This document shows, piece by piece, positions 8,982 through 63,848 of a stretch of DNA of 64,000 nt. Position 1 is the stretch's first letter. Every line of letters begins with the position of its first letter. Source of the stretch: an archaeon (GTDB taxonomy: Archaea > Nanobdellota > Nanobdellia > Woesearchaeales > GW2011-AR9); NCBI GenBank assembly GCA_002688265.1, contig NZCK01000024.1:8731-72730 (forward strand), in the 5' to 3' direction. A program made the position numbers and the translations under genes. The notes beneath the pieces are model-generated. The model did no database searches. It was not told the DNA's origin and saw only the letters and a list, made by a program, of their open reading frames with translations.

Positions 8982-9098
8982 AATTAATCATCTCCATTTA
9001 TTGATAATAATTTTTTCTAACAATTCTATTTAAACTGAGTGCTTCTAAAAAATATAGTTCTAAAAAGTTAAATAAATAAAGAAAAGTAAAGAAAAAAA

Positions 9099-9926: not shown

Positions 9927-10003
9927 TTATCAATAGTTTTTATTTAAAAACGTTTATGTTCTGCAGTATATGTATCTCATTATAAGTGACGTTTTACTAT
10001 GAT

Positions 10004-10993
10004 TTATTGTACTCCTAACTGCAAAATATTACTAGAACTTTCTAAAGATTCTGCCTCTCCAACTAAAGTTACAGGATATCCTTCATTCGATGAAAGAGTC
10101 ATCTCGCCATAGAAATCATACAAATCAATAGCGTCGCCCTCTAATTCATAAGTTAAACGATCAATCACTTTTAGATTTCCCTCGCCTGCTGGAAAATACA
10201 TATATGAAAAAGAAATGTCATCTGTTGTAATAGTATCATACCGAAGAGCGTCAATCTCAATTTCTATCTCTGACTCACTCAAAATTGAAACTCCATTCAA
10301 ATGTATCTCTGAAATTGTTCCCTCCAAAGTTGTAGTGTGAGCATTAACTTTGAAGCGCCCCACAAAATCTGTTAAATCAATGGTTACTTTTGATTTGGCT
10401 TCAAGTAAATCTCCATTAATTCTAACACTAGAACCAAGGTTACTTGCAATAAAAGATATATCAGAAATTGAAGCAGTGGCATCAATTTCCGGAATATTAG
10501 AAAATTCTAATTCAAAAGCAATAGGATCATTTGTTCGACTAGTATCGACTGTTGGAATTGTTCTGCTAGTAGAATCATCGTTGGAGTTTGATTCTGAATT
10601 TTGATTGTCCCCTTGGTTATTTGCTGTCGTTTCTGATTCTGGAAGTGGTATACTCCCCTCACCTGCTTCTCCTTCATTAGAAGAACCATCTTCTGAATTT
10701 CCTGAAGCTTCTTGGACAGAGGTAGTTGTTGTAGTTCCGCTATCTCCAACAGGAACGTCTGCTAGAGTTGTAGTAGCAGCACCTAAGGTCCCAATATAAC
10801 CTCCAGTTATTCCACCATTCAACACCAAGGTTAAACCACCAACTATTGCAATCACTGCTAAAATAGTTAGAACAATTGTTTGAGCGGAATGGTTGGTCCC
10901 CATTTCTTCTTCTTTAACTTTAGAATTATCTTTACTTTCTTTTGAAATTTTGTCTAATACAGAAACACCTTCTTTTTTTACACCATCAACCAT
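10004..10993 (-). CDS. membrane-anchored protein with Thr/Ser/Asn-rich stalk
   Basis: 329 aa. The layout is a charged N-terminus, one TM (IVLTILAVIAIVGGLTLVL), a GAATTT motif, a low-complexity T/S/N/E linker and a ~180-aa C-terminal domain. Confidence 0.5.
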   Translation of the reverse strand: MVDGVKKEGVSVLDKISKESKDNSKVKEEEMGTNHSAQTIVLTILAVIAIVGGLTLVLNGGITGGYIGTLGAATTTLADVPVGDSGTTTTTSVQEASGNSEDGSSNEGEAGEGSIPLPESETTANNQGDNQNSESNSNDDSTSRTIPTVDTSRTNDPIAFELEFSNIPEIDATASISDISFIASNLGSSVRINGDLLEAKSKVTIDLTDFVGRFKVNAHTTTLEGTISEIHLNGVSILSESEIEIEIDALRYDTITTDDISFSYMYFPAGEGNLKVIDRLTYELEGDAIDLYDFYGEMTLSSNEGYPVTLVGEAESLESSSNILQLGVQ

Positions 10994-11514: not shown

Positions 11515-12672
11515 TTATTTTATTGCTTGCAAAAGTCTCATTTCTGTTCTATACACCTCCTCAGATATTGCTTTTTGAGTTTTTAGGCCAATAAGGGCTT
11601 TATCAAAAGGAAGCCCACTCCCCCCTAGCATTGAATTATATAACTGACCAAAATTCCCTTTTTGAATTTGGTTCCTTGATCCATGAGAAGAAAATAAATA
11701 TTCCATAGCTAAAGCGACCCCATTACTCCCCTCTCTTGGAAGAATTTTTTGATAAGAGATGAACCGTAAGTAAGTTGCTAAATCATGTCTCACTGCCAAC
11801 TGTTCTCCTTCGGAAAATCTGGAACAAATTCCTTGCAAAGCATTTGGAACACTCTCACCATGATAAGTGCTTAAAACTAAATGACCTGTGCTGGCTGCAG
11901 TTAACGCCGCCCGAATTGTTTCTTTATCTCTTAACTCCCCAACATAAATAATATCGGGTTTGTCTCGAAGCGAATCCTTCACACCCTGTTCGAAACTAGC
12001 CACATGAAGTCCCACTTGACGCTGCACGACTTGTGTTGAACCATAAGATCTAAACAAGGCCTCAATCGGGTCTTCTAAAGTTATTAATTTTGCAGACCCA
12101 CTTCTCTTTATTGCACGCTCTTTAATAATCCCATCAACAATTGAAGTTAACGTTGTGGATTTACCTGAGCTGGTCGATCCTGTTACCAAAATTAATCCAC
12201 TTGATTCAGTTGCAATTAAACCATACACTGAAGTTGGAAACCCAATGTCACTAATTGACATGATCTTACTAGGCAGCTTACGCATAGTCACCGCAAACCC
12301 CATATAGGCGCTACGAATACTTACTCTAAACCGGCAACCATACAATTCTCTTGCCAAATCTAATCCTTTATTGTTTAATAGAACTTCATATTCTTTATCT
12401 GAACAAATTCCTCTGACAATCTGTTCAACAAACTCTTCTGAAAGAGGATCGACTTTTGTTTGTCTATGAAGAAAAGAGGGGCGATCTCCCGTCGCTGTAC
12501 TTGGGCCTTTAGCTAAACTTTTGGGAAGAGGAACTAATCCTCTCCCTGGATAACTAATACTTGGTGCAGACCCCACAGTGAAATGGAAATCAGAAACTTG
12601 ACCAATGGTTAATAGTTCTTGAAAGGTTAACTTGTTGTCCGGGAAAGCAATTTTGTCCAATTCACAAACCAT
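11515..12672 (-). CDS. pilT: PilT-family type IV pilus (retraction-type) ATPase
   Basis: 385 aa. Collinear with bacterial PilT: SDFHF, RFRVS, MRKLPSKI, Walker A LVTGSTSSGKSTT, ITLEDPIE, IIYVGELRDKETI and TGHLVLSTYHG. Confidence 0.8.
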   Translation of the reverse strand: MVCELDKIAFPDNKLTFQELLTIGQVSDFHFTVGSAPSISYPGRGLVPLPKSLAKGPSTATGDRPSFLHRQTKVDPLSEEFVEQIVRGICSDKEYEVLLNNKGLDLARELYGCRFRVSIRSAYMGFAVTMRKLPSKIMSISDIGFPTSVYGLIATESSGLILVTGSTSSGKSTTLTSIVDGIIKERAIKRSGSAKLITLEDPIEALFRSYGSTQVVQRQVGLHVASFEQGVKDSLRDKPDIIYVGELRDKETIRAALTAASTGHLVLSTYHGESVPNALQGICSRFSEGEQLAVRHDLATYLRFISYQKILPREGSNGVALAMEYLFSSHGSRNQIQKGNFGQLYNSMLGGSGLPFDKALIGLKTQKAISEEVYRTEMRLLQAIK

Positions 12673-36932: not shown

Positions 36933-38984
36933 TTAAGGATTTCTGTGCGGAGCTTTCCATAAGAGAAATAGTAGTAAAATTGATGAAATGATTAATAATA
37001 TGGGAACCAAAGCGATGGTTCTTTTTCCAGTAGATTCATACGCGGTTGTTCCAGAGATTGCTGCTGTGAATGAAGAATTTGAAATATTATTATAGGTTGG
37101 GCTTGTTGGAGAAGAAAAAGCAGATTCAAAATTAGAAATAGACGAATTTGAAGAGTTATTAAAAGTGGAGTTAACGGTATTTTGATCAACTAGTTCAAAA
37201 TTAACAGTTTTTAGATCAATTATTGAAATGTTTGTACCAAGTTCGTTTGCGGTTTTTTGATTGTCTTTGAAAAATTTAACTTTTAATCTATAATCTGTGT
37301 CCAAATTTAAACGGGAGTCTAAACTAAGATTAAAGCTATGGTTATATTGTTGATTTGCTCCAAGCTCTATTGTTTTTAAAGAATAGTTTCTCTCTTTTGT
37401 GTTTTCATAACAAGAGTAACACCAAGCCCCATTGTATAAATAACTGTAAAAAGTATAGTTGTGGGGTAAGTCATCTGAATTAATTTGAATGGTAAAATTA
37501 AGTGATTGGTTGTGAGAAGTATTTGAAGGGAGTTCTAAAAATTGATATTCTTGATATTCATTAGTTGTTTCTATATTAGGATTTTCTGATTGATTATCAT
37601 TAAGGGAAAAAACATTTTCTGTTTTAAGTAATTCAGAATTAATTTCATAACTTGTACAAAGATCTGAATTAAGGCCAGAAATTTCAAATTCTTCTTCAGT
37701 TTCAATATTTAATCCCTCAACTATCAATTTGGCGGGACCATCTGAAATGGAACTATCACAATTAGAATACAATTGTATAGGTAAAGTCAGAGTTGATTCT
37801 TGAAAATAATTATAGAGATTTATTTTAGTTCTTTTGCTAACGATTTCATCATTTTTAGTTACATATAGTTCTACAGCATGTTTGCTTTCATCTCCTTTAT
37901 AGAGAATAACTTTAGCTAGAATTTGGTCGCCCCATTTTGCTTGACTATTCTGATTCAAATATAGTTTGTTTATGTCAAAACTACTTATTGATTTTTGGTA
38001 GTTTGGATTAATCGCAATTAAAACCGAAGAAAGATCATTTAGTTGGTTGGTGTCATTACAAGAAGAACTAGTTATGTTAAAAGTTAATTGGTAAACACCT
38101 GTTGCTAAATTTGGATGATAAAGTTTAGTTTTTTGGTTAGTAATTTTTTGATTCTTCCAAGGGGAATATTCTTTGATAATGACTCCATTAATATCTTGAA
38201 TTGCTCCAGTTACAGAAATTTCTTCTGATTCTAAAATCTTGTTTGTGTTTGAACCATTGTTTTGAACCATAACTTCAAACTCAAATTCTTCTGAATTAGT
38301 AATAGGCGCAACGAGGTTAATTGAAAGTGAAAAATCACAGTGACTTTCGTTTAATTGAAAGAGTGTTTTTTCTGAGTTGTTGGTATCATTTAGAGTGTTA
38401 TTTAAAGTATTATTTTGAGTTAGATTCTGATCGATAGAATTTTTGAATCCTGGACTTCCTTGGAAATTTAATGATTGGGCCCAAGTGCCATCATTGCTTT
38501 TTTCAATAGAATAATTGTTTCCATTTGCTAAGTTGGTGTAAGAAGAGTAATCAATAGAATCATTACAAAAATCACTCCCACTTAAAGAGAGAAGAGTACC
38601 AGAGTTGCTTAAAGTCATAGCAGATTCAACAACATTAATTGAAGTATTTGTTATTTGATTTATGGCTTGAAAATTGGTTTGAAATTTGCCTTTATCCCTG
38701 ACTATAATCAGAAAACTATTTGTTTCAATGAGGGTGTTGTTTGGAAGAATATTGTTGTTGAAAGTACAGTTGTTTAAATTTAAATTGGAAGAAGCATTAT
38801 TGAATAACTCTACCCACTCGCAATCACTATCACTGCAATCAACAGGGTTATACATTATTTCATTAATCTGAACACTGGCCTGAGCTGAACATGCCAAAAG
38901 AATAATAATTGTAATAATTGCAATTAGCAAAAAAAGAGGAAATAGAACCTTTATTCTTATTTTAGATAATTTGATAATTTTCAT
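36933..38984 (-). CDS. surface protein with N-terminal lamin-tail-domain (LTD) and C-terminal TM anchor
   Basis: 683 aa. A signal/anchor is followed by the LTD signature VQINEIMYNPVDCSDSDCEWVELFN. The protein is very Asn-rich with dozens of N-x-S/T sequons. The C-terminal TM is LVPILLIISSILLLFLLW. Confidence 0.6.
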   Translation of the reverse strand: MKIIKLSKIRIKVLFPLFLLIAIITIIILLACSAQASVQINEIMYNPVDCSDSDCEWVELFNNASSNLNLNNCTFNNNILPNNTLIETNSFLIIVRDKGKFQTNFQAINQITNTSINVVESAMTLSNSGTLLSLSGSDFCNDSIDYSSYTNLANGNNYSIEKSNDGTWAQSLNFQGSPGFKNSIDQNLTQNNTLNNTLNDTNNSEKTLFQLNESHCDFSLSINLVAPITNSEEFEFEVMVQNNGSNTNKILESEEISVTGAIQDINGVIIKEYSPWKNQKITNQKTKLYHPNLATGVYQLTFNITSSSCNDTNQLNDLSSVLIAINPNYQKSISSFDINKLYLNQNSQAKWGDQILAKVILYKGDESKHAVELYVTKNDEIVSKRTKINLYNYFQESTLTLPIQLYSNCDSSISDGPAKLIVEGLNIETEEEFEISGLNSDLCTSYEINSELLKTENVFSLNDNQSENPNIETTNEYQEYQFLELPSNTSHNQSLNFTIQINSDDLPHNYTFYSYLYNGAWCYSCYENTKERNYSLKTIELGANQQYNHSFNLSLDSRLNLDTDYRLKVKFFKDNQKTANELGTNISIIDLKTVNFELVDQNTVNSTFNNSSNSSISNFESAFSSPTSPTYNNISNSSFTAAISGTTAYESTGKRTIALVPILLIISSILLLFLLWKAPHRNP

Positions 38985-53442: not shown

Positions 53443-53587
53443 TTTACTCTAAAGAAACTCAAATAAGACAGGCTTTTTAATTTATTGCCAAGTTATTGTT
53501 AGATATTCTCTTTATATTAGTTTTTTAACCTTTTTTTTAAAACGAAGATTTATAAATCTCTCGACCATTTCACAGAGTAGATTTAAG

Positions 53588-56500
53588 GTGATGGTTGAGA
53601 GGAAAAAACAGACTACTTTAGGGTCATCTGTTTCTGGAGCTAGTTCGAAGTATGTTTTTACTAGATTTAATGGCATATTTTTACTGTTCATTCTACTATT
53701 TGTACTATTCACCGTAGGAGTTTTTGCTGACACCGAAGGATGTTATTTATTTACAGGGGGATCAGAAGATTATCTCTGTCAAAACAATGTTTTAGAAAGT
53801 GAAGCAGAAGCAGACTGTTCCAATGATGATAATTGCGATTTTGATTCAATGTTTATTGCTGGTGAATCTTGTTCTAATTACCCAGAAGTTTGTGCCGAAG
53901 TAACCTGTTCTTATGATTGTGATACCCACTCTATTGGAAAATGTGAAGATTTAGGAGGAGAAGCAATCTCAGATGACGAATATGACCTTTGGTGTTCTGA
54001 AGGATGCTGCTCTGTTGGAAGTTTTTGTGAATATGTAGACATTCGATATGATTGTGTCGAAAGAGCAATCCAACAAGGCTACACCGAAAGCGATATTTCA
54101 ATGATAATTGAAAATATGGATTCAAATTCCTGTCAAACTACAATCTGCGGAGTTGAACTAAGCTTAGGAACAGTTGGAGGATATATTCTAGATCAAGATG
54201 GATTAGCTATCAGTGGAGCCAACGTAGAACTTAGTAGCACCCAAACAGATACTAGTTCTAGTGATGGATATTATTCTTTTTCTGGAGTTACTCCAGGAAG
54301 TTATGTTTTACAAGTTAGTGCAACAGGATATTCAAGTGTTAGCAGCTCAATTTCAGTAAGTTCAGGTGAAAATGTTGAAACTAATATCACCTTGGCTCCA
54401 GCCGGAGATAGTTACACTATTAGTGGAGAAGTTTATGATGATACTAGCGTACTGGTTGCTGATGTAAGTATTTGCTTTGAATCTTCAACGGGCGAAGAAT
54501 TTTGTACAACCAGTAGCTCAGAAGGAAGTTATAGTATTTCTGGATTACAGTCAGACAGTTACATCATCACTATGACTAAGTATGCGTACGCAACAACCAC
54601 AGACTCATTAACTGTTAGCGGAGATTCAAGCCACGATTTAGTGATTGACTCAATAGATTTTCAAGGAGTAAGTGGAATAACGTGGCTTGATGAAAACGGA
54701 GATGGCTTGGTTCAAAACCCAGAGGGAGTGGTTTTTGGAGCTTCAATTTACGTTGACGGTGTTTACAAAGGCAATTCTCAATATCCAGACGGGGATTATG
54801 AAGTTTACTTAGAAGATGGAACTTACACAGTACAAGCGACCTATCAAGATTATGCTAGTGAAGAGTACGAAATAACAGTTGGCGCAAATGAGGTTGATTT
54901 ATCAATCTTATTACAACAAGAAATTGGGGAATGTAGTTACGGCGAAGCTAACCAAGAAAAATCAGTAGAAGTTTTCGAAGCTACAATTACACAAGGAGTT
55001 TCCGAAGTAATCCTTAGTTGGGAAAAACCATGTAATGAAGTAAGTGGTTACATTATTCAAAGAGATGGATTACCACTAAGTGGAGTAGATTCATTTTCTC
55101 CTCTAGTAATTACTACAACCGACCTAGAAGTAGAATGGGGAGAAACATACACTTACTCAATTTGGGCAGTTTACACTGACGGACCATTAGATGAAAATGG
55201 TGACCCACAAGTAAGACAAAGTTCAAGCCCAGCAACAATTAGTATCACACTTGGAAATTTGAATTGCGAAGGGAGAGAAGTTGGAGCCACATTTTGTATC
55301 TCAGACGATTCCGACACCAGCACCGATGAAAGGAAAACTGTTTATTCTTGCGATGAGGGCAATAATATCATAAGTTCAGTTGATTGTTCAAGTTTGGATG
55401 ACTCTGAAAGCAGTTATTTTTGTAGTGCTGCTTCAGAAACTTATGCACTTTGTAAAAATACTGGAAATTGTAATGTTCTTGGACAAAACGCAGATCCATT
55501 CGGATTATATTACGATTCATCTTCATGTTATGGAAATTATGACGCACAAGATGGATACGATTCATTCTGTTATTATGATTACACCGAAACTAGTATTGTT
55601 GATGCCTGTTACTCATGCGAACAAGTAGTAAACTGTTTTGATTATATCAGCCAAGACAGTTGCGAAGTCAATAACTGTTTAGGCATTGGTTGCAACTGGA
55701 TAGATTCAAGCAATAGTAGTTTAGATTATGGCGTGGAAAACAGCGATTCATTCTTAGATTTAGGTTACCTATTTCCAACATCTGAACAAACAGGGCATGG
55801 ATATTGTGTTGAGGAAGGATATGGTGATTTAGAAATCTTAGGGTTTGGAGAATACTGCAGTCAATGTGGTCCAGATGCAGACCTTTTCGAAAACACTTTT
55901 TGTACAGCAGACGTTTGTAGCAACCTAGGACGTTGTTTTGCTGATGAAGAATTGGCAGCTTGCGACTCTTGTGGAGATGAAGCAAGTGGGGATGCTAACT
56001 GTTACACTTACAATTCGGAAATAGAATGTAGCGGAGGAAGTGATGTTTCAATTATTTCAGGAGTAGTTAGTGGATCAGAAGACAGTTGTGCATGGAACGC
56101 TTGTGCTTGGCAAGAATCACTCACGGCTTCAGCAGAAGGATTAGGTGAAGGAGTTAATGGATATTGCTACAAAGACGGAAATGGTGACAAAAATGATGAT
56201 TGTAGTGAATTTAGTAGTGGAGAATATGACTCCTGTGTTAGAGACGTATACTCTCCAACAACCAGCATAGTTACGAACAGTTTTGAAGTGGTTTCAACAG
56301 CTTATTCTAATGTAAGTTTTTCTGGAACAGACGAAGAGAATCCAATGGGCCAATTAGGATATTGCATAATGAGTTCAGATTCTGGTGATTGCGATAATTT
56401 CGAGTATGTAGATTATGCAGGATTAGAAAACACTGAAGAATTAGTAATTGATTTAATCAATAGCAGTTTCTTAAGCGCAAGCAAAATTGATGGAGAAAGT

Positions 56501-59500
56501 TATGTACTTAGATACTTCTCACTAGACAAATATTATAATCAAGAATCAGTTAGAGAAGCAATAGTTTTTGTGGACAACCATAACCCAGAGTTTACCGTTG
56601 AATGGGAAAGCACAACTGATGCTGATCTTAGCGAATTAACAGTTTACCTAAGTGATATGAATGAAGCAATGCGTTGTGATTTTGGATTAGATGAAACTTA
56701 TCCTTCAGGAGATAGTTACGAAACTAGTTCTGAGAGAGATGAAGATAAAGAAGCCACATTTAGTAACCTTGATGGAATTATATACAACTTAACTGTAAAT
56801 TGCTACGATGATTATGGGAACTTAGGCGAGTTTGACGAAGAGATTGTTTTTGATTTAGAACAAGACATAAGCATTGTATATCCCCCGTTTGAAGGAGTGA
56901 TCGCCGAAACGAGTGTAGAATTTGCAGTGACAACAGCAGTATCAGCCACTTGTGAATTGTATGAAGTAGAAAGTGGAAACAAACTAGCAGATTTTGCAAC
57001 ATCTGACACTGAAAACAAAGTACATGAAACAACAGAAGTTGCTGGTTATTTTGAAGGAGATTACTCTGGAACAGTAAAAGTTGTTTGTGTAGAATCACTT
57101 GATGGAGACATTCTAGAAGACTATTTCTATTTCAGCGTAGATTTTACAGCACCAGAAACTCAAATCATTTTAACCGAAGGAGAAAGAATTGAAGAACCAA
57201 CCGGATACGCTTGGGAAGAATTTTTTATTGAAGAAGTTCAAATCGATTTTGAATGCGTAGAAGATGATGGATTCGCTTGCGCCAGTACTTATTATTGTCT
57301 TGGAGAAGAATGTGAATATGCTGAAGCAGAAGGCTACGTGGAGTACACAGCCAGTGTCTCTGTAGTTGAAAGCACCGAAATTTGTTATTACTCTGTTGAT
57401 GAAGGAGGATCTGTTGGATATCCTGATTGCGGAGAAATACTTATCGAAGGATTTGGAATTTTGCTGGTGACACCAACCCAATTCTACTATGAAGGAGAAG
57501 TTTGGGGAATTAGTAATGCTGCAACATTTGATTGGGAAGTGATGACCAAAATTGATACCAACGCCTGTGCTTTTGATTTTAACGACGGGTTTGATATGCA
57601 TACCCAACCAGAATATAAACAAATCTCTAATAGTGATATCGCTGATAATCATTATACTTACCTAGAATTCCCAGGAGAAGTGTTAGAAGCTTACGAGGAA
57701 TCAGGTAACGTCAAGACTTTATACGTGCAATGCGAAGATTACACTGGGGAAGTGGGACCAAATCAATTAATGAATTTAGAATATGATCCAACACTCCCTG
57801 TAATTGGATCTAGTTACGCGGATCCTGACTCCATGAGCGAAGGAGTAGAAACGTATTTGTATGTAAGTACTGATGATAAAACGCTCTGCAAATTTAGTGA
57901 TGATAGTGAGTCAACAGGAAGTCACGAGTACGACACAATGGAATACTCGTTCCCAGGGTTTGAAGGAGACGATGGAGAACAAGAACTGTTTTTAGATCAT
58001 GAAACTGCTTTTGGTTTTAGTTTTGCAGGAGCGTCAAAAGATTATTTATTGAATGTACAATGTATGAATGGGGCAGGAGATTTATCTGAGGCCAACGAAA
58101 TCACATTTAGTGTAGATTATTCCATCTCTGGATATATTGAATCGATTTTACCAAGTGGATACATTACCAATACCGATGTCACATTAGAAGTTGTTACAAG
58201 TAAAAATGCAGAATGCAGTTATGATGAAGTTGTAATGGAATCTACTGGAGGCACAACTCACAGCCAATATTTAGGAGTATTATCAGAAGGAGAATATCAA
58301 TATTTGATTGTTTGTAGTATTGAAGGAAGTGATAGAGAAGCAGAAGCAAATTTTGCAATTGATTTAACAGCGCCAATTGTTTCTGAAATTGATGATGGAA
58401 CTTACACTTGTAGTCTAGACACTGCATCACTGTTTGCATACACTGATGATGAGTCAATTAGTAGTTATTATTATGAATTGTATCAAGGAGACTCTGTTGT
58501 CGTAGAAGATTCAACAAGTTCTAACGAAACAAATGAGTCAGTAGATACGGGTTCAACAAGTTCTGGAACTTTAATTACTACTGGCACAATGCCAGTTGAG
58601 AACGGAACAACAATTACTGGGTTGAATTTATTGGAGAATACATCTTATTATTTTGAGGTGTCAGTTACTGACACTGCTGGAAATGTAGGATCAGGAGCTA
58701 CCAGTGATGGATTTATTGCAGTGTCAAGTGATTCAGAAAGTTGTACCTCGGATGAAACGCCGCCAACAGTTACAGTTACAACTACTGATAGTTGCTCAAA
58801 AGTGACTGCTGTAATAGATTGTGAAGATGCTATGGGGTGTTCTTCTATATTTTATGGGTCAGCGGCTTCATCTTCAGATTGCAATACTACAGAAAATTAT
58901 TATGGATCAAATATTGATTTTGAAAGCAGTGGGTGGGTTTGTTATTATGCCGAAGATGTAAACGGAAATAATGTTAGCAGTTCAAAGAAAGTTACGGTCT
59001 CTGATGACGATGGGGACAAAGTGGCAAATAGTTGTGATGCTTGTGGAAGTACAGCTGCAGGTTCTGCAGTTGATAGTGAAGGGTGTGGTTACGGAGAAGT
59101 ACCAGACGCAGAATCTGAGAGTGGGACCAGCGATACTGATAACGATGGGCTGCCAGATAGTTGGGAAAAATTGTACGATCAAACAAGTTGTCCATTCAAT
59201 TATATTAGCTCTGACAGTGATTCTGATGGAACTTTGGACACTAATGAAGATTACGATGGGGATGGTTACACTAGTTACGAAGAATACCGAGCAGGTTATA
59301 ACCCTTGTACCTCTGATGGCCCAAGTGAAGATAGTAGTAGTACAACTTCAACAGAAGATGATTTAATAAGTAGCGATGATTCAAGTTCTAGTAGTACTTC
59401 TGGAGATAGTGAAGGATCATTAATGGCATTGATCTTCTTCTTGATCGGACTAGTATTATTAATTGGAGGTGGAGCAGGACTCTACTATGCTTATGCAAAA

Positions 59501-60040
59501 GATCCAAAAGGAAAAGCAGCAGTAGCTCAATTCTTTGGAAAAGGAACGACTGCTAGTTCAACAGGTTCTGATAATGGATTAATGGGAGGACCGTATTCTG
59601 GACCAAGTGGAGTAGTTAGTGGACGGGCCACAGGTGCAGCTGGTGCTGCAGAGGCAAGTGGAGCAGGAGGATGGATTGCTAATATGCGTAATGCTGTTGC
59701 TGGTTTAGGAAAAGTTAGAAACAAAAAAGCAAAACGTAAACAACGAGTTGGCGAATTTGGTGACTTTAATAAGAGTAGTTCTAGTTTCCCTCATTTTGCA
59801 GACGTATTAGATTCCAAGAAAAAACCACTGGAAAAATTAGGAGATTTAACTTCAAGATATTCAGAACATCGTGATATTGTCAAAAAAGGTTTAAAACCAC
59901 ATGAAAAAAGTCTGTTCTCACAATTAGATAGTATTTCTAAAAAAGCTAAAGGAAAATCATTAGATTCAGTGGCGTCTCCACAAGATGCTAAAAACATCTT
60001 TAGTAAACTAAAAAAGTTAAGTGATAAAAGAGGGAAATAA
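53588..60040 (+). CDS. giant Cys-rich cell-surface protein (carboxypeptidase-regulatory-like and thrombospondin-type-3-like repeats, C-terminal TM anchor)
   Basis: 2150 aa.
- Signal peptide: ...FTVGVFA|DTEG.
- Cys-rich modules.
- CarboxypepD_reg-like repeats (GGYILDQDGLAISGANVEL...GSYVLQVSATGY; YTISGEVYDD...).
- Asp-rich Ca-binding-like repeats at nt 59003-59310 (DTDNDGLPDSWE, DSDSDGTLDTNEDYDGDGYTSYEEY).
- Ser-rich stalk.
- TM at nt 59420-59494.
- A ~180-aa Gly/Ala- and Lys-rich cytoplasmic tail. Confidence 0.8.
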   Translation: MMVERKKQTTLGSSVSGASSKYVFTRFNGIFLLFILLFVLFTVGVFADTEGCYLFTGGSEDYLCQNNVLESEAEADCSNDDNCDFDSMFIAGESCSNYPEVCAEVTCSYDCDTHSIGKCEDLGGEAISDDEYDLWCSEGCCSVGSFCEYVDIRYDCVERAIQQGYTESDISMIIENMDSNSCQTTICGVELSLGTVGGYILDQDGLAISGANVELSSTQTDTSSSDGYYSFSGVTPGSYVLQVSATGYSSVSSSISVSSGENVETNITLAPAGDSYTISGEVYDDTSVLVADVSICFESSTGEEFCTTSSSEGSYSISGLQSDSYIITMTKYAYATTTDSLTVSGDSSHDLVIDSIDFQGVSGITWLDENGDGLVQNPEGVVFGASIYVDGVYKGNSQYPDGDYEVYLEDGTYTVQATYQDYASEEYEITVGANEVDLSILLQQEIGECSYGEANQEKSVEVFEATITQGVSEVILSWEKPCNEVSGYIIQRDGLPLSGVDSFSPLVITTTDLEVEWGETYTYSIWAVYTDGPLDENGDPQVRQSSSPATISITLGNLNCEGREVGATFCISDDSDTSTDERKTVYSCDEGNNIISSVDCSSLDDSESSYFCSAASETYALCKNTGNCNVLGQNADPFGLYYDSSSCYGNYDAQDGYDSFCYYDYTETSIVDACYSCEQVVNCFDYISQDSCEVNNCLGIGCNWIDSSNSSLDYGVENSDSFLDLGYLFPTSEQTGHGYCVEEGYGDLEILGFGEYCSQCGPDADLFENTFCTADVCSNLGRCFADEELAACDSCGDEASGDANCYTYNSEIECSGGSDVSIISGVVSGSEDSCAWNACAWQESLTASAEGLGEGVNGYCYKDGNGDKNDDCSEFSSGEYDSCVRDVYSPTTSIVTNSFEVVSTAYSNVSFSGTDEENPMGQLGYCIMSSDSGDCDNFEYVDYAGLENTEELVIDLINSSFLSASKIDGESYVLRYFSLDKYYNQESVREAIVFVDNHNPEFTVEWESTTDADLSELTVYLSDMNEAMRCDFGLDETYPSGDSYETSSERDEDKEATFSNLDGIIYNLTVNCYDDYGNLGEFDEEIVFDLEQDISIVYPPFEGVIAETSVEFAVTTAVSATCELYEVESGNKLADFATSDTENKVHETTEVAGYFEGDYSGTVKVVCVESLDGDILEDYFYFSVDFTAPETQIILTEGERIEEPTGYAWEEFFIEEVQIDFECVEDDGFACASTYYCLGEECEYAEAEGYVEYTASVSVVESTEICYYSVDEGGSVGYPDCGEILIEGFGILLVTPTQFYYEGEVWGISNAATFDWEVMTKIDTNACAFDFNDGFDMHTQPEYKQISNSDIADNHYTYLEFPGEVLEAYEESGNVKTLYVQCEDYTGEVGPNQLMNLEYDPTLPVIGSSYADPDSMSEGVETYLYVSTDDKTLCKFSDDSESTGSHEYDTMEYSFPGFEGDDGEQELFLDHETAFGFSFAGASKDYLLNVQCMNGAGDLSEANEITFSVDYSISGYIESILPSGYITNTDVTLEVVTSKNAECSYDEVVMESTGGTTHSQYLGVLSEGEYQYLIVCSIEGSDREAEANFAIDLTAPIVSEIDDGTYTCSLDTASLFAYTDDESISSYYYELYQGDSVVVEDSTSSNETNESVDTGSTSSGTLITTGTMPVENGTTITGLNLLENTSYYFEVSVTDTAGNVGSGATSDGFIAVSSDSESCTSDETPPTVTVTTTDSCSKVTAVIDCEDAMGCSSIFYGSAASSSDCNTTENYYGSNIDFESSGWVCYYAEDVNGNNVSSSKKVTVSDDDGDKVANSCDACGSTAAGSAVDSEGCGYGEVPDAESESGTSDTDNDGLPDSWEKLYDQTSCPFNYISSDSDSDGTLDTNEDYDGDGYTSYEEYRAGYNPCTSDGPSEDSSSTTSTEDDLISSDDSSSSSTSGDSEGSLMALIFFLIGLVLLIGGGAGLYYAYAKDPKGKAAVAQFFGKGTTASSTGSDNGLMGGPYSGPSGVVSGRATGAAGAAEASGAGGWIANMRNAVAGLGKVRNKKAKRKQRVGEFGDFNKSSSSFPHFADVLDSKKKPLEKLGDLTSRYSEHRDIVKKGLKPHEKSLFSQLDSISKKAKGKSLDSVASPQDAKNIFSKLKKLSDKRGK

Positions 60041-60111: not shown

Positions 60112-60657
60112 ATGGGAAAGATGACAATTGCAAGAGAAAATATTTTTAGAGACAAAAAGGGACAAGGAATAGGACAAGTTTTTGTGTTTATAGTAGCGGG
60201 TTTAACTTTTGCATTTGTTATGATTTTTGGATACAAAGCTATCGCAGACTTCTTGGAGAAAGGAGAAACAGTTGAGTTCTTACAATTCAAAAATGAAATC
60301 GAATCAGACATAAAACAAATAGCCTCAGAATATGGTGCAGTCAGACAAACAACATTTTATCTTCCTGCGAGATATGAAGAAGTTTGTTTTATAGATTTGG
60401 ATGCAGAGTATGATTCGAGTAGTGAACTTTGTCAAAAAAATATTATTGCGTGTGATGTCTGGGAGACTGCTTTTGAAGAGGGAGGATACACTGCGGCTGA
60501 TGAAAATGTGTTTTTGGAGCCAACAGCACCAGTTTCTATTAAAGTTTATAATATCGAACTAGACGAAGATTATTTTTGTGCAACTGTAAGCGGCGGACAA
60601 TTCACTCTGAGATTGGAAGGATTAGGCTCAAAAACATATCTCTCAGAAGCAAGCTAA
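60112..60657 (+). CDS. class III signal peptide (type IV prepilin-like) protein 1
   Basis: 181 aa. ...FRDKKG|QGIGQVFVFIVAGLTFAFVMIF has a basic leader, G|Q, then a hydrophobic helix. Confidence 0.6.
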   Translation: MGKMTIARENIFRDKKGQGIGQVFVFIVAGLTFAFVMIFGYKAIADFLEKGETVEFLQFKNEIESDIKQIASEYGAVRQTTFYLPARYEEVCFIDLDAEYDSSSELCQKNIIACDVWETAFEEGGYTAADENVFLEPTAPVSIKVYNIELDEDYFCATVSGGQFTLRLEGLGSKTYLSEAS

Positions 60658-60708: not shown

Positions 60709-61860
60709 ATGGTAGTAAGAAGAAGAGTTCGGTCTAAAACAGGGCAAATGACACTCAGTTTTAATTGGATCTTTGTTTTGATAGCTGGAACAATGATTTT
60801 ATTATTTTTTGTAGGAATTATAATTAAACAAAAATCAGTATCTGAACAAAAATTAAATTTTGATATTGTAACAGTTATGGATTCTATTTTAACAGGATCA
60901 ACAGTCTCTGAGAGGACAATTAATTTTGTAGATATAAGTGGACTTGCAGGATTTGAATTATATTTTGATTGCGAACTAGATGACGGAGGTGGTTTTGATG
61001 ACATATTTGCACAGTATGGAATTACAGGAAGTACTGCCAGCAGCGAATTACCAATGCAAGTTTTGTTCGCTCCTAAAACAATGGAAGGAACAGAAATGAT
61101 TACTTGGAGTTTGCCCTATAAAATGCCTTACAAAGTGATGGATTTATTGATGGTCACATCAACTTCAGTTAAATATTACGTTATAGGTGGAGAGAATACA
61201 GCATTTAGAACTGATTTAGAAAATGCAACAGATGGGTTCACAATAGAATTTATTTCTGATGTATCTGAAATTTCTTCACCAGGAGATTTGTACCATGTTC
61301 GAATAATTGACCTTGATGGAAGCACGTTAGTTCATAGTATGGAAATTCCTGACATATTAAAAGATGCAGATACTGGCGTAGTTACAGGAATTTTAATATC
61401 AGACACATTAAGTAGCGTAAATTATTTTGCTAAGAATGGAGATGTTTGGAATAAATTAACTTCAGCAGGATCTGTCCCGATAATTAATACAGGGTACGAA
61501 GAAAAAGATGCAGCATTATATGGTGCCTTGTTTTCATCCGATGATGAGTCATACAAATGTAATATGATGAAAGCGTTTAAACGGTACTATTTAGTGACTC
61601 AGTTGTACCAGGAGAAAGTTGAAGAGATGATCTCTTATTATGAAGAAGGGCCAGAAGAAGCTCAAGCTAATACTGATTGTGGTTTGCATTTAACAGAAGA
61701 CGCATCTAACATGGAAGACGCGCTTAATAATTTGGCAAGCACACTTACAACTTGTATAGAGCAAGGTTATGATTATTGCACAGAACTTTCAGAATATGCC
61801 AGAGAAGTGCACACTTTAAACGAAGCATTAAGTGGAGAAAATTGTGAGACATTATACTGA
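60709..61860 (+). CDS. class III signal peptide (prepilin-like) protein 2
   Basis: 383 aa. MVVRRRVRSKTG|QMTLSFNWIFVLIAGTMILLFFVG. Confidence 0.6.
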   Translation: MVVRRRVRSKTGQMTLSFNWIFVLIAGTMILLFFVGIIIKQKSVSEQKLNFDIVTVMDSILTGSTVSERTINFVDISGLAGFELYFDCELDDGGGFDDIFAQYGITGSTASSELPMQVLFAPKTMEGTEMITWSLPYKMPYKVMDLLMVTSTSVKYYVIGGENTAFRTDLENATDGFTIEFISDVSEISSPGDLYHVRIIDLDGSTLVHSMEIPDILKDADTGVVTGILISDTLSSVNYFAKNGDVWNKLTSAGSVPIINTGYEEKDAALYGALFSSDDESYKCNMMKAFKRYYLVTQLYQEKVEEMISYYEEGPEEAQANTDCGLHLTEDASNMEDALNNLASTLTTCIEQGYDYCTELSEYAREVHTLNEALSGENCETLY

Positions 61861-61889: not shown

Positions 61890-62504
61890 ATGAAAACAAT
61901 TAATAAAAAACAGCAGCGCAAATGGGGAATTTTTCCTAAAGGCCGAAGAGCCCAAATGCAAATGATGGAAACAATAGGAGTGATCTTCATATTTTTCGTT
62001 TTAGTGCTGTTTGGATCAATATTTTACTTTAAATTCCAAGAAATTAGCTTTCAAAATCAACAAGAAGAATTGTTAGCCCAAAAAGCAATGGATATTACAC
62101 TAGTAACTTTGTTTTTACCAGAAATTCAATGCAGTCAAGGAGATGCAGAATCTGAAGATAATTGTGTTGATATGACAAAGGTGAGGGCCATGAATATGAT
62201 GATGGAAGAAAACCCCAGATATTTGACAGATTATTACTTCAATATTTTTGGTTACGCGAATATAAGTGTAAACATGGTTTACCCCATAAATTATTCTTGG
62301 ACCGTTTACGAATTTGAAAAAACAGGAATTTATGATAATGGGACAGAATACTCTGCTTGGGATCGAAAAGAAGCCACCTATTTTGTGATTACTTTAAGAG
62401 ATGGAATGCAAGGCTATGGATATGACAGTGCAGTAAGTTCATTATTCTTAGGAAATGAAATTATTTACAGTTTTGGTTACTTGAAAATTGAGGTGTTCAG
62501 TTAA
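61890..62504 (+). CDS. class III signal peptide (prepilin-like) protein 3
   Basis: 204 aa. ...FPKGRRA|QMQMMETIGVIFIFFVLVLFG. Confidence 0.55.
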   Translation: MKTINKKQQRKWGIFPKGRRAQMQMMETIGVIFIFFVLVLFGSIFYFKFQEISFQNQQEELLAQKAMDITLVTLFLPEIQCSQGDAESEDNCVDMTKVRAMNMMMEENPRYLTDYYFNIFGYANISVNMVYPINYSWTVYEFEKTGIYDNGTEYSAWDRKEATYFVITLRDGMQGYGYDSAVSSLFLGNEIIYSFGYLKIEVFS

Positions 62505-62505
62505 A

Positions 62506-63045
62506 ATGGCTAATCGCAGAGGACAAACAGAAATGATTGGCCTAGTTGTAATTGTGATAATGCTAACACTTGGAATGTTGTTCTTAGCCAAATTTGCTCT
62601 ACAGGAAGAACCAGCTAAAAAAATATTTACTAGAAAAGGTCTTGCTTATAGCACAATGAGTGCAGTTATGAAAACAGAATTAGAATGTTATGATAGCGCC
62701 ACATCAAATGATCCTGATGAACTAAAAGTTCAAGCGGATTTGCTTGAGGATTGTGCAGATGTTGTTAGATTTAATACCGCAGGAGATATTAGTTGTTATG
62801 GTTACGATAGCAGCTGTGATTTGTTAGAAGAAGAAATTTCTATTTTGTTAAATGCTACACTAGGAGAATGGCATAAAGAATATTTGTTTAGCGCTGAAGT
62901 TTTGGTTGGAACTGAGCCTTTGACAGTATTAGAGATTGATAGTGGTGGATGTGCCACTTCAACTGAGCGAGATAGTTCAGGATTATTTCCGATTTATGTG
63001 ACGAATGTAGGTTTAATTGAAAGTGTTTTGTATATCTGTGAGTAA
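62506..63045 (+). CDS. class III signal peptide (prepilin-like) protein 4
   Basis: MANRRG|QTEMIGLVVIVIMLTLGMLFLA. ATG 62506 is preferred over the track's TTG 62488, which overlaps the previous gene. Confidence 0.6.
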   Translation: MANRRGQTEMIGLVVIVIMLTLGMLFLAKFALQEEPAKKIFTRKGLAYSTMSAVMKTELECYDSATSNDPDELKVQADLLEDCADVVRFNTAGDISCYGYDSSCDLLEEEISILLNATLGEWHKEYLFSAEVLVGTEPLTVLEIDSGGCATSTERDSSGLFPIYVTNVGLIESVLYICE

Positions 63046-63155
63046 AGTTTTTATTAAATTTGAATAGGGATTCCCGTAATGTTTATATACGCTAAGAGAT
63101 TATTTATTAACTAGTATTAATAGTATAAAATTTAATATTTAACGAGGTGGATGGA

Positions 63156-63527
63156 ATGGATTTTCTAAAATCAAAGAAGGGACAAGGATTGTCTTTAACA
63201 GTTATTATTGTAGCAGCACTGGCACTAGTTGTTTTAGTGGTGTTGGTTTTGATTTTTACTGGAAGAATGTCAGTATTTAGTGAAGGTTTAGGTGAAGAAG
63301 GAACAGCAGAATTAACAACATACAAAATAGTTTATGGTGATTGTCATCCAACAAGCAGTCAAGAAAATGCGTTTTTGAATGCAATGAGTCAAGCAGCTAA
63401 TGACAAAGATAACACCCAAGAGCTGGAAACGGAAGCCAAAGATGACTTTGAAGGAGTCATTGATGACTGTCGTGCATCAGGAATTGATGAGAACGCTTGT
63501 GAATCTGATGGATGTAGTTGGAATTAA
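63156..63527 (+). CDS. small prepilin-like protein 5 (major-pilin candidate)
   Basis: MDFLKSKKG|QGLSLTVIIVAALALVVLVVLVLIF, with a Cys-containing C-terminus. ATG 63156 is preferred over GTG 63147. Confidence 0.6.
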   Translation: MDFLKSKKGQGLSLTVIIVAALALVVLVVLVLIFTGRMSVFSEGLGEEGTAELTTYKIVYGDCHPTSSQENAFLNAMSQAANDKDNTQELETEAKDDFEGVIDDCRASGIDENACESDGCSWN

Positions 63528-63530
63528 AAG

Positions 63531-63848
63531 ATGGTAATTAGTAAAAAAGCGCAACAAAACATGTTTTGGATAGTGATTGGTGCAGTAATTGCTTTGGTTG
63601 TAATGATCATACTAATAGTAATGTTTACTGGGAAGACAGGAGCATTAGAAGGGGGCCTTTTGGATTGTCAGAGTAAAGGAGGGGTCTGTGAATATACTAG
63701 TGAAGATTGTAAAAATTCCGACTCTTTTAGTAAAACTGGTGGTTACTCTGGAGAGGACGCAGGAACTGTTGCATCAGCATTTCAATGTTCTGGAGTTAGT
63801 TCAGACATAGTTTGCTGTTTCCCACCAAGCAAAGTTTCCGAAGATTAA
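63531..63848 (+). CDS. small prepilin-like protein 6 (major-pilin candidate)
   Basis: 105 aa. MVISKKA|QQNMFWIVIGAVIALVVMIILIVMF, with 6 Cys in the C-terminal half. Confidence 0.6.
   Translation: MVISKKAQQNMFWIVIGAVIALVVMIILIVMFTGKTGALEGGLLDCQSKGGVCEYTSEDCKNSDSFSKTGGYSGEDAGTVASAFQCSGVSSDIVCCFPPSKVSED

What the first reader, a model, noticed from the sequence alone, without database searches (positions are those of the whole stretch)
53588..60040. 2150-aa Cys-rich, multi-domain surface protein heading the pilin cluster
This single ORF takes up 10% of the window. Its layout is:
- A Sec signal peptide.
- Repeated Cys-rich modules, with many C-x(2-8)-C spacings.
- At least three carboxypeptidase-regulatory-like beta-sandwich repeats.
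- An FN3-like segment.
- Asp-rich thrombospondin-type-3/Ca-binding-like repeats (DTDNDGLPD, DSDSDGTLD, DYDGDGY).
- A Ser-rich stalk.
- One TM.
- A ~180-aa Gly/Ala- then Lys-rich cytoplasmic tail.

It is followed after 71 nt by seven prepilin-like genes on the same strand. In small-genome episymbiotic archaea, such giant proteins are prime candidates for host-attachment adhesins. The cytoplasmic tail suggests coupling to something inside the cell.
Basis: partly seen in the sequence, partly recalled or inferred. Interest (0 to 1): 0.6.

Follow-up and report, generated by a model that had tools for sequence, protein, structure and literature searches.

The report
Fused giant surface stalk protein
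This gene encodes a real 2150-residue, disulfide-rich, membrane-anchored surface protein of a tiny uncultured Woesearchaeota (DPANN) archaeon; it is a fusion of two proteins that related lineages encode separately, and it always heads a conserved block of pilin-like genes, so it is a good but untested candidate for part of the cell's contact apparatus.

Summary
Window 53588-60040 (+) is one unbroken 2150-codon ORF, collinear end to end with more than 60 orthologues.

**Layout.** Sec signal, Cys-rich head, three CarboxypepD_reg domains, an FN3-like domain, a Cys-rich core, about nine beta-sandwiches, three DxDxDG calcium motifs, a Ser-rich linker, one TM and a 180-aa basic tail. Seven prepilin-like genes follow after 71 nt.

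**New here.**
- A full-length orthologue is in 42 of 42 sampled genomes of its GTDB family. 78 of 80 Cys are conserved and no region is hypervariable, so it is a core structural protein, not a variable adhesin.
- It is a fusion. In other Woesearchaeales families, residues ~47-1297 match the N-terminal part of a secreted, unanchored giant. Residues ~1302-2150 match a separate ~900-1250-aa anchored protein that always lies directly upstream of the first pilin-like gene.
- The conserved cytoplasmic end domain occurs nowhere else among 1.84 billion representative proteins.
- Only the CarboxypepD_reg domains clear a curated family cut-off, and structure searches gave only generic beta-sandwich matches.

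**Best reading (~0.55).** A calcium- and disulfide-stabilised stalk and anchor of an undescribed type-IV-filament-related surface apparatus. Host attachment is plausible but untested.

The scan met this family before on other DNA (e1-761322, e1-1174890, e1-2852745).

The parts
53549..53556 (+). TTTATAAA, a candidate archaeal TATA box 32-39 nt upstream of the start; it would give a nearly leaderless mRNA
   Evidence: Read directly from the sequence. Inference only; not tested.
53588..53728 (+). Sec-type signal peptide, aa 1-47: basic n-region, hydrophobic core, VFA|DTE cleavage site
   Evidence: peak 19-mer hydropathy 2.89. It is the least conserved part of the protein.
53729..54157 (+). N-terminal Cys-rich alpha/beta head domain, aa 48-190, with 16 Cys
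   Evidence: The Cys are 93-100% conserved. AlphaFold pLDDT is about 90. No family hit. Secreted giants of other families carry the same domain at their N-terminus (A2 profile positions 3-326).
54164..54925 (+). Three CarboxypepD_reg (prealbumin-like) beta-sandwich domains, aa 193-446
   Evidence: Pfam PF13620 E=2.6e-28, three stretches. Matches NOMO2 in the PDB at E=5.8e-22. The three copies are homologous to each other, hhalign probability 97-99.6%.
54950..55261 (+). FN3-like beta-sandwich, aa ~455-558
   Evidence: AlphaFold strands. Weak FN3 profile matches, E 0.004-0.02. Some orthologues carry PF00041.
55262..56257 (+). Cys-rich core, aa 559-890, with 30 Cys of which all but three are invariant; mixed short helices and strands
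   Evidence: A word-index search found it only in orthologues. A profile search also found it in secreted giants of other Woesearchaeales families. No solved-structure relative.
56258..57463 (+). Four beta-sandwich domains, aa 891-1292, forming the end of the 'A' (distal) part
   Evidence: AlphaFold. IgC is homologous to IgG, and IgD to IgI. Homology to the unanchored giants stops at profile positions 298-308, about aa 1297.
57464..59002 (+). Start of the 'B' (proximal) part: five beta-sandwich domains, aa ~1293-1805 (three two-Cys Ig-like domains, one FN3-like with a Ser/Thr-rich insert, one multi-Cys domain)
   Evidence: The stand-alone anchored proteins of other families start matching at A3 profile positions 313-317, about aa 1302. 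AlphaFold pLDDT is about 85-95.
59003..59308 (+). Membrane-proximal TSP3-like calcium-binding segment, aa 1806-1907, with three D-x-D-x-[DN]-G motifs and 5 Cys
   Evidence: The Asp residues are invariant. The segment is kept in the B proteins of other families.
59309..59419 (+). Ser/Thr/Asp-rich linker, aa 1908-1944, predicted disordered
   Evidence: low conservation; pLDDT below 50.
59420..59497 (+). Single transmembrane helix, aa 1945-1970
   Evidence: hydropathy 2.63; helix.
59498..59719 (+). Proximal cytoplasmic tail, aa 1971-2044: Gly/Ala/Ser-rich, variable and disordered
59720..60040 (+). Conserved basic helical end domain of the tail, aa 2045-2150 (basic run, then F-G-x-F, then helices ending ...KLKxxSKKRK), plus the stop codon
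   Evidence: Alignment A4. pLDDT 74-86, helical. Among 1.84 billion representatives, the significant profile matches were to the C-terminus of orthologues or of their fragments; a few weaker multi-stretch matches lie inside repetitive proteins.
60112..60657 (+). g05, the first prepilin-like gene (181 aa; KKG|QGIGQVFVFIVAG)
   Evidence: It lies directly downstream of the giant or anchor gene in every family examined.
60709..61860 (+). g06, prepilin-like (383 aa)
   Evidence: Homologues in 292 of 401 sampled genomes of the phylum.
61890..62504 (+). g07, prepilin-like (204 aa)
62488..63045 (+). g08, prepilin-like (185 aa as listed; the likely start is the internal Met of MANRRGQ)
63147..63527 (+). 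g09, prepilin-like (126 aa)
63531..63848 (+). g10, prepilin-like (105 aa)
63882..64000 (+). g11, a 42-aa mini prepilin (MLSTKKG|EVSASPALLVTILL...) that runs 10 nt past the window end. It has no globular domain and is a candidate Flp/Epd-type filament subunit.
   Evidence: The equivalent 40-54-aa genes are present in relatives.

Best explanation
The ORF encodes a Sec-exported, type-I membrane-anchored, strongly acidic surface protein built as a long string of about 17 folded modules.

Layout, from the distal end inwards:
- a Cys-rich head;
- three prealbumin-like domains;
- an FN3-like domain;
- a Cys-rich core;
- about nine beta-sandwiches.

The chain is probably stiffened by about 39-40 conserved disulfides and by a membrane-proximal calcium-binding segment. 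It ends in one TM helix and a basic cytoplasmic tail whose last ~100 residues form a conserved small helical domain.

The protein is a fusion.
- Its distal 1300 residues ('A') correspond to the N-terminal part of a secreted, unanchored giant in other Woesearchaeales families.
- Its proximal 850 residues ('B') correspond to a stand-alone anchored protein. That protein is a fixed first gene of an operon of about 14-16 proteins with class III (prepilin-type) signal peptides, an operon found across the order.

Proposed mechanism (inferred):
- B is the membrane anchor and stalk that works together with the pilin-like proteins. These would be processed by the genome's A24 prepilin peptidase and assembled by its secretion ATPase, both encoded elsewhere.
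- A is the distal working end that B holds on the surface, non-covalently in other families and covalently here.
- Together they would form a type-IV-filament-related surface apparatus, most plausibly for cell-to-cell or surface contact.

What is shown computationally: topology, domain content, conservation, the fusion and the operon linkage. What is inferred: disulfides, calcium binding, physical interaction with the pilin-like proteins, and any role in host contact.
For: Intact ORF, topology and composition.

Conservation:
- Full-length orthologues in 42 of 42 sampled family genomes, and in three other families.
- 78 of 80 Cys conserved in at least 93% of 60 orthologues, with even conservation along the ectodomain.

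Structure: AlphaFold models with mean pLDDT 84.4 and 81.0 show tandem beta-sandwiches, the TM helix and a helical tail domain. Foldseek returns tandem Ig/FN3 arrays, Gram-positive pilins, the grappling-hook protein GhpA and the adhesin SiiE.

Fusion:
- Profile mapping shows A-type homology ending at A3 positions 298-308 and B-type homology starting at positions 313-317, in independent families.
- The A and B genes are adjacent in three families, and overlap by 4-8 nt in two of them.

Operon linkage:
- The order giant -> g05 ... g20 is collinear in dozens of loci.
- The median gap from the giant to g05 is 13 nt, and 18 of 57 loci overlap.
- In every family examined, the gene directly upstream of g05 is a large Sec-signal protein ending in a TM and a basic tail. 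In eight of the nine loci it matches the B profile; in the ninth (L088) it matches only the A profile.
- In one genome the B tail runs without a stop into the KKKKKGQ leader of g05, which fits the predicted topology.

Machinery in the same genome: an A24 peptidase and a 774-aa T2SSE ATPase two genes from a 9-TM protein.

Literature precedent: archaeal type IV pilus loci that contain large C-terminally anchored 'S-layer-like' proteins and adhesin-like proteins with many conserved Cys (PMC4858521). In DPANN the filament genes are scattered around the genome (PMC13705601).
Against: - No protein of the operon, the giant included, reaches any Pfam or NCBIfam pilin, adhesin or S-layer model.
- The pilin-like call rests on an N-terminal motif only.
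- No platform protein (PF00482) was detected in the genome, which is 85% complete. The 9-TM candidate has no Pfam hit.
- The ATPase, the peptidase and the operon lie on different contigs.
- The even, strong conservation would fit a general envelope protein equally well.
- The direction of the event (fusion rather than fission) rests on distribution, not on a rooted tree.
Confidence: 0.55

Rival explanations
1. It is the main envelope (S-layer-type or canopy) glycoprotein of this Woesearchaeales family. On this reading it is a structural coat protein anchored by its C-terminal TM, and the neighbouring pilin-like genes are merely co-regulated surface components.
For: - Single-copy and universal in the family.
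- Evenly conserved.
- Sec signal, Ser/Thr-rich membrane-proximal linker and C-terminal TM match the classical archaeal S-layer glycoprotein layout.
- Weak similarity of the prealbumin-like domains to Sulfolobus SlaB (Foldseek E=5.4e-8; profile E=0.0025).
- Makarova et al. label such C-terminally anchored large proteins in pilus loci 'S-layer-like'.
Against: - No S-layer family hit.
- A chain of about 17 modules would, if extended, far exceed usual S-layer dimensions (inference).
- It has a 180-aa tail with a conserved folded end domain.
- It has only 11 N-glycosylation sequons.
- In other families the distal part is a separate, much larger and differently built protein, which is unlike a lattice subunit.
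- Coupling to g05 is tight.
- Another candidate coat protein lies at 36933-38984 in the window (noted, unchecked).
Confidence: 0.2
2. It is a free-standing fibrillar adhesin for host or substrate attachment that does not physically depend on the pilin-like proteins. The gene neighbourhood would reflect shared regulation only.
For: - A tandem Ig-like stalk with a distinct N-terminal head and calcium motifs resembles fibrillar adhesins such as SiiE, SdrD and GhpA.
Against: - The order-wide fixed position directly upstream of g05, with frequent overlap of stop and start codons.
- One B-g05 fused ORF.
- No recent repeat expansion, no length variation and no hypervariable region.
- No recognised adhesive domain.
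Confidence: 0.15
3. It is a transmembrane receptor or mechanosensor. The large ectodomain would bind a ligand or sense force, and the conserved cytoplasmic end domain would relay this to an intracellular partner, for example the filament assembly machinery.
For: - The conserved folded tail domain is separated from the TM by a flexible linker.
- The basic run plus the hydrophobic-F-x-x-F motif is kept even in distant B proteins.
Against: - There is no enzymatic or known signalling domain.
- The tail domain has no relatives outside this family, so nothing ties it to a signalling pathway.
Confidence: 0.07

Closest known systems
Large 'S-layer-like' and adhesin-like accessory proteins in archaeal type IV pilus/filament loci (Makarova et al. 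2016, PMC4858521: clade 1 Epd-type loci of methanococci and thermococci, and Thermoproteales clade 4 loci; see also PMC13705601)
   Same: A large Sec-exported protein with a C-terminal TM sits in one block with many class III signal peptide proteins ('minor pilins'). A second large secreted protein is usually nearby. Many conserved Cys are expected to form disulfides. Very small pilins without a globular domain are present, as in Epd.
   Different: No arCOG or Pfam family is shared, and DUF2341 (PilY-like) is absent. No ATPase, platform or peptidase lies in the locus. The pilin-like genes number about 14-16. The protein has a long conserved cytoplasmic tail and the A-B fusion. None of the operon's proteins in the window is recognised by current Pfam or NCBIfam models.
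Bacterial minor-pilin plus PilY1 operon (P. aeruginosa fimU-pilVWXY1E) and T2SS pseudopilins GspH-K
   Same: A large calcium-binding non-pilin protein is encoded together with several different pilin-like proteins that are not the main filament subunit.
   Different: PilY1 has no TM anchor or cytoplasmic tail and carries a beta-propeller. None is seen here, and the gene order and domain content are unrelated.
Fibrillar adhesins (Salmonella SiiE, staphylococcal SdrD, Aureispira GhpA, Gram-positive pilins)
   Same: An elongated string of Ig-like or prealbumin-like beta-sandwiches with calcium sites and a distinct distal head. These are the top Foldseek matches.
   Different: It is anchored by a type-I TM with a cytoplasmic domain, not by LPXTG or T1SS retention. 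The domains are ancient and dissimilar rather than recently repeated. Its length and sequence are conserved. It has 80 Cys.
Archaeal S-layer glycoproteins and the Sulfolobus SlaB anchor
   Same: Sec signal, Ser/Thr-rich linker next to a C-terminal TM, and beta-sandwich domains. SlaB is weakly matched.
   Different: It has no S-layer domain family and no PGF-CTERM. Instead of a few residues it has a 180-aa conserved tail. It is operon-coupled to pilin-like genes.
Eukaryotic NOMO / teneurin / thrombospondin-type ectodomains
   Same: Similarity at the domain level only: CarboxypepD_reg sandwiches (NOMO2, E=5.8e-22) and TSP3-like D-x-D-x-D-G repeats.
   Different: Only these shared domains are similar. 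The overall architecture and the biological context are different.

Membership tests
CarboxypepD_reg domain (Pfam PF13620) | Score above the Pfam gathering cut-off | tested here: met
   98.6 bits against a cut-off of 32.3, in three stretches at aa 195-446. The NOMO2 match confirms it.
Bacterial TSP3 repeat (Pfam PF18884) | Score above the gathering cut-off; D-x-D-x-D-G calcium loop | tested here: inconclusive
   15.8 bits against a cut-off of 25. However, three D-x-D-x-[DN]-G motifs are present with invariant Asp, and one orthologue carries PF18884.
Fibronectin type III (Pfam PF00041) | Pfam hit or clear profile match, plus a seven-strand sandwich | tested here: inconclusive
   No Pfam hit at E<=1 in this protein. 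PDB profile E values are 0.004-0.02 for aa ~454-550 and 0.004-0.1 for aa ~1646-1712. The AlphaFold model shows a beta-sandwich. Some orthologues carry PF00041.
Archaeal S-layer glycoproteins | Membership of a described S-layer domain family | tested here: not met
   No such hit in Pfam, NCBIfam or PDB profile searches.
Archaeal S-layer glycoproteins | Sec signal, Ser/Thr-rich linker and C-terminal membrane anchor | tested here: met
   However, the anchor is followed by a 180-aa tail.
Archaeal S-layer glycoproteins | Very high abundance and lattice formation | not testable with these tools
Archaeal type IV filament (T4F) system, as an accessory component | Neighbouring proteins carry class III signal peptides | tested here: inconclusive
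   The motif [KR][KR]x[GA] plus a hydrophobic helix is present in all seven downstream genes and in about 16 genes in relatives. No Pfam or NCBIfam pilin model matches, and cleavage is untested.
Archaeal type IV filament (T4F) system, as an accessory component | Class III signal peptidase (A24) and secretion ATPase present in the genome | tested here: met
   PF01478 at C30:18761-19123, E=1.1e-11. PF00437 at C7 (774-aa ORF) and in the window at 11515-12672.
Archaeal type IV filament (T4F) system, as an accessory component | Platform protein (T2SSF/TadC/ArlJ type) present | tested here: not met
   PF00482 was not found in the 85%-complete genome. The 9-TM 746-aa ORF near the ATPase has no Pfam hit.
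Archaeal type IV filament (T4F) system, as an accessory component | Co-localisation of ATPase and platform with the pilins | tested here: not met
   They lie on different contigs. None lies within 10 kb of the operon in the two relatives whose flanks carry Pfam annotation. DPANN T4F genes are reported to be scattered (PMC13705601).
PilY1 / DUF2341 pilus-tip adhesins | DUF2341 or a PilY1 beta-propeller domain | tested here: not met
   Neither is in the Pfam scan at E<=1. No propeller appears in the models or among the listed Foldseek matches.
Fibrillar adhesins | Stalk of tandem Ig-like domains | tested here: met
Fibrillar adhesins | Recognised adhesive head domain, or a variable number of near-identical repeats | tested here: not met
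   The head has no family hit. Length is 2006-2207 aa among the 60 aligned full-length orthologues. The repeats are detectable only at profile level.

The most novel reading that the evidence does not exclude
The giant and its ~14-16 pilin-like operon partners form a previously undescribed kind of archaeal surface machine. In it, a Sec-exported, membrane-anchored, disulfide-stapled stalk is mechanically coupled to a short type-IV-filament-like pseudopilus. The coupling would run through the stalk's membrane-proximal part and its conserved cytoplasmic end domain. Assembly of the pseudopilus would then deploy or position the distal head against a host cell. This would make it the general host-contact organelle of Woesearchaeales and Pacearchaeales, with the head swapped or fused in different families.
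Probability: 0.2. Interest if true: 0.85.

Novelty: new variant of a known kind. Interest (0 to 1): 0.55.

Why it matters
How DPANN archaea hold on to other cells is largely unknown outside a few cultured lineages, and Woesearchaeales have no cultured member. This locus takes up about 2-3% of a ~1-Mb genome. Its pilin-like core is found in about three quarters of the phylum genomes sampled (292 of 401). The giant is universal in its family.

The fusion gives a concrete, testable statement: the secreted giant and the anchored stalk protein work as one unit next to the pilin-like proteins. That defines targets for metaproteomics, cryo-ET labelling, complex prediction and heterologous expression.

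The locus also shows that current type-IV-filament models (Pfam, NCBIfam and, by report, arCOG-based MacSyFinder models) miss a large, conserved DPANN system.

Tried and rejected
- **Structure search.** Foldseek of both AlphaFold models against the PDB gave only generic tandem beta-sandwich matches, with nothing specific for the Cys-rich head, the core or the tail.
- **Profile search of the PDB.** It found only CarboxypepD_reg relatives and weak FN3 matches.
- **NCBIfam.** Nothing was found for the giant or for the six downstream proteins.
- **Tail domain.** A profile search of 1.84 billion representatives found only orthologues and their fragments. The ~350-400-aa hits are C-terminal fragments, not paralogues. 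The small paralogue reported in another genome (e1-1174890) has no counterpart here.
- **Cys-rich core.** A word-index search found only orthologues. That result understates its spread, because profiles also detect the core in giants of other families.
- **Rest of the operon.** It was sought in the window's own genome, but it runs off the end of contig C24 and was not found on other contigs.
- **Platform protein.** It was not detected.
- **Literature.** Four full-text searches and six papers gave no description of this family.
- **Artefact or non-coding.** Rejected, because of the end-to-end collinearity with orthologues.

Full report
**1. The observation**

Window 53588-60040 (+) is a single 2150-codon ORF. 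It starts at GTG 53588 or ATG 53591. A TTTATAAA box lies 32-39 nt upstream.

Hydropathy shows only two hydrophobic segments, the signal h-region and a TM at aa 1945-1970. The ectodomain is very acidic (pI 4.05; 20% Asp+Glu, 2.2% Lys+Arg). The 180-aa tail is basic (pI 10.2). This fits an N-out, C-in type-I topology.

All 80 Cys lie outside the membrane. Cys content is 3.7%, against 1.16% for long ORFs of the genome.

Pfam finds three CarboxypepD_reg domains well above cut-off, and a sub-threshold TSP3 repeat. NCBIfam finds nothing meaningful. Three D-x-D-x-[DN]-G motifs sit at 1849-1893.

The next gene starts 71 nt after the stop. It and the following genes carry [KR][KR]x[GA] leaders followed by a hydrophobic helix. 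There are six complete genes, plus a 42-aa mini-pilin gene that runs 10 nt past the window end. A loose version of the motif matches 2.7% of genome ORFs.

**2. Organism and conservation**

The flanking genes are archaeal: aIF5B, Trm1-like, RNA cyclase, MCM, Cdc6 and PolD. Relatives are labelled Woesearchaeota or Nanoarchaeota MAGs and single-cell genomes, many of them marine. The genome is 1.07 Mb in 32 contigs and 85% complete.

A database search gave about 17 orthologues of 29-75% identity, most of them full-length at 1964-2157 aa. A scan of species-representative genomes gave 80 loci.

In a sample of 400 genomes of the phylum, a full-length match occurs in 42 of 42 genomes of the same GTDB family. 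It also occurs in three other families (f17 3/3, f72 2/2, f63). Elsewhere only part of the protein is matched.

In an alignment of 60 orthologues, 78 of 80 Cys are conserved in at least 93% of sequences. Identity to the query is 25-58% in every 50-aa window of the ectodomain. Only the signal peptide, the Ser-rich linker and the proximal tail are variable. The last ~100 residues are conserved again.

Against the closest relative the giant is 70% identical, within the 58-81% range of its neighbours. Nothing suggests diversifying selection or repeat expansion.

**3. Structure**

Two AlphaFold2 models were built on 61-sequence alignments.
- Residues 45-1000: mean pLDDT 84.4.
- Residues 990-2150: mean pLDDT 81.0.

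They show the following, in order:
- an alpha/beta Cys-rich head;
- three prealbumin-like sandwiches;
- an FN3-like sandwich;
- a Cys-rich core of short helices and strands;
- about nine further beta-sandwiches;
- a disordered linker;
- the TM helix;
- a disordered proximal tail;
- a small helical end domain.

Foldseek against the PDB returns only generic tandem sandwich arrays: Gram-positive pilins, fibronectin, contactin, alpha-2-macroglobulin, GhpA, SiiE and SlaB. Profile searches of PDB sequences find only CarboxypepD_reg relatives (NOMO2, E=5.8e-22) and weak FN3 matches.

Profile-profile comparison of the domains gives three repeat groups:
- the three prealbumin-like domains are homologous to each other;
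- four two-Cys sandwiches (IgC, IgE, IgF, IgG) form a second group;
- two multi-Cys sandwiches (IgD, IgI) form a third.

**4. The operon**

In relatives the giant is followed, on the same strand and in fixed order, by about 14-16 genes. All have the pilin-type leader. They include two tiny genes of 40-54 aa with no globular domain. The block ends before an RPA gene.

The gap between the giant and g05 has a median of 13 nt in 57 loci, and the two genes overlap in 18 of them.

In the window's genome the operon runs off the end of contig C24, 525 nt after the window. The rest was not found on other contigs.

In many relatives a second giant lies upstream (46 of 82 loci). In this genome it is 1677 aa with 63 Cys, and its N-terminus looks lipobox-like. 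It sits at the other end of the same contig, followed by an 844-aa pilin-like protein.

The 383-aa pilin-like protein g06 has homologues in 292 of 401 genomes of the phylum. The pilin-like block is therefore far more widespread than this particular giant.

**5. The ORF is a fusion**

I fetched the g06 neighbourhoods of nine genomes from other families.

In every one of them, the gene directly upstream of g05 encodes a large Sec-signal protein that ends in a TM and a long basic tail. The tail carries a basic run followed by a hydrophobic-F-x-x-F motif. In eight of the nine, this protein ('B', 876-1686 aa) has Ig-like domains and TSP3-like repeats. These eight match the profile of the giant's second half from position ~188-385 to the end; in four independent loci the match begins at positions 313-317, about aa 1302 (E 1e-45 to 1e-180).

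In three of these families a secreted giant without any anchor ('A', 1872-3346 aa) lies immediately upstream of B. It overlaps B by 4-8 nt in two of them. Its N-terminal ~1350 residues match the giant's first-half profile across positions 3-933. They also match the second-half profile over positions 2-308, which is about aa 47-1297 of the giant.

The two homologies meet at about aa 1297-1302, near nt 57480. So the target protein equals the N-terminal part of A joined to mature B.

Most families carry separate genes, and A proteins continue for 500-2000 more residues after the shared part. The simplest history is therefore an in-frame deletion that fused the two genes in the ancestor of this family and its near relatives. 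This is an inference; no rooted tree was made.

Two further variants were seen.
- In L088, a 1735-aa protein with A-type domains is joined directly to a TM and tail.
- In L094, the B tail runs without a stop into the KKKKKGQ leader of g05. This is topologically consistent, since the tail end and the pilin leader are both cytoplasmic. It is a single case and could be an assembly error.

**6. What else is in the genome**

- An A24 prepilin peptidase lies on contig C30.
- A 774-aa T2SSE ATPase lies on C7, two genes from a 9-TM protein. That protein has no Pfam hit.
- PF00482 was not detected.
- A second, PilT-like 385-aa T2SSE ATPase lies in the window at 11515-12672.

The newest survey of archaeal type IV filaments reports that DPANN genomes have scattered components. 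ATPase and platform lie close together while pilins lie elsewhere, and most systems cannot be assigned to a known subtype (PMC13705601).

Makarova et al. described archaeal pilus loci with several minor pilins, tiny major pilins, and large proteins that are either adhesin-like or C-terminally anchored and 'S-layer-like', often with many conserved Cys (PMC4858521). That is the closest described kind.

**7. The tail**

A profile of aa 2045-2150 was searched against 1.84 billion representative proteins. It found 115 proteins. The significant matches are to the C-terminus of orthologues or of their fragments. A few weaker multi-stretch matches lie inside repetitive proteins and look spurious. The domain is specific to this family and gives no outside clue to its partner.

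**8. Interpretation**

Firmly supported: this is a conserved, disulfide-rich, type-I surface protein. It arose by joining two operon components, and it is genetically coupled to a pilin-like gene block.

Inferred: it acts as stalk and anchor (B) plus distal head (A) of a type-IV-filament-related surface apparatus.

The S-layer reading remains possible (about 0.2), as does an independent adhesin (about 0.15). Host attachment is plausible for a ~1-Mb DPANN genome, but nothing here tests it.

**9. Novelty**

No paper found describes this family. The scan itself met orthologues before in other genomes, and earlier follow-ups reached a similar general reading.

- the 42-of-42 family count;
- the fusion mapping;
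- the order-wide B protein;
- the family-restricted tail;
- the inventory of filament machinery in this genome.

I class it as a new variant of a known kind, namely the large accessory proteins of archaeal type IV filament loci.

Noticed in passing
window 11515-12672 (-): A 385-aa T2SSE-family ATPase (Pfam E=6.4e-34) of PilT-like size lies about 40 kb from the pilin-like operon. The ORFs at 8286-10993 (-) have no Pfam hits. The ORF at 2292-3527 (-) has a signal-peptide-like N-terminus and no Cys, but was not scanned. Whether this part of the contig is of foreign origin was not checked.
   Followed up: partly
window 63882-64000 (+), continuing to G000:C24:72740; next gene at G000:C24:72741-72920: Two tiny genes (42 and ~50-59 aa) encode a pilin-type leader plus a hydrophobic helix and almost nothing else. 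They resemble Flp/Epd-type major pilins and have 40-54-aa equivalents in relatives. They are candidates for the actual filament subunits.
   Followed up: partly
G000:C24:2664-7697 (-) and G000:C24:1-2533 (-), upstream of the window: A second giant (1677 aa, 63 Cys, N-terminus ...LFLTGC, lipobox-like, no Pfam hit) is followed by an 844-aa protein with a pilin-type leader that runs off the contig start. In many relatives this giant lies directly upstream of the target gene. Here the locus is split and inverted.
   Followed up: partly
L094:4296-8357 (+) (G048:C1): In this genome of another family, the anchored B-type protein and the first pilin-like protein g05 form one 1353-aa ORF. The cytoplasmic tail runs straight into ...SLKKKKKGQ|AHTHIFIYVLAII. 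This is either a real fusion that the prepilin peptidase could cut, or an assembly error.
   Followed up: partly
L089:8160-13220 (-) (G173:C8): A B-type anchored protein of 1686 aa contains the Ig-like block twice (profile positions ~313-820 and 317-918) and extra TSP3-like units. So the stalk length varies between families by internal duplication.
   Followed up: no
G000:C30:1776-12350 (-) and C30:17447-19150 (-): A 3524-aa ORF with a basic leader plus a hydrophobic N-terminus lies about 6 kb from the A24 prepilin peptidase gene, which itself sits next to a 192-aa pilin-like gene. The genome holds several more ORFs of 1800-2400 aa.
   Followed up: no
G000:C7:45143-52616: The 774-aa secretion ATPase is separated from a 746-aa 9-TM protein (a possible, unrecognised platform protein) by a 919-aa protein. 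That protein has six N-terminal hydrophobic segments, a Pro-rich linker and a long C-terminal part. It was not scanned against Pfam.
   Followed up: no
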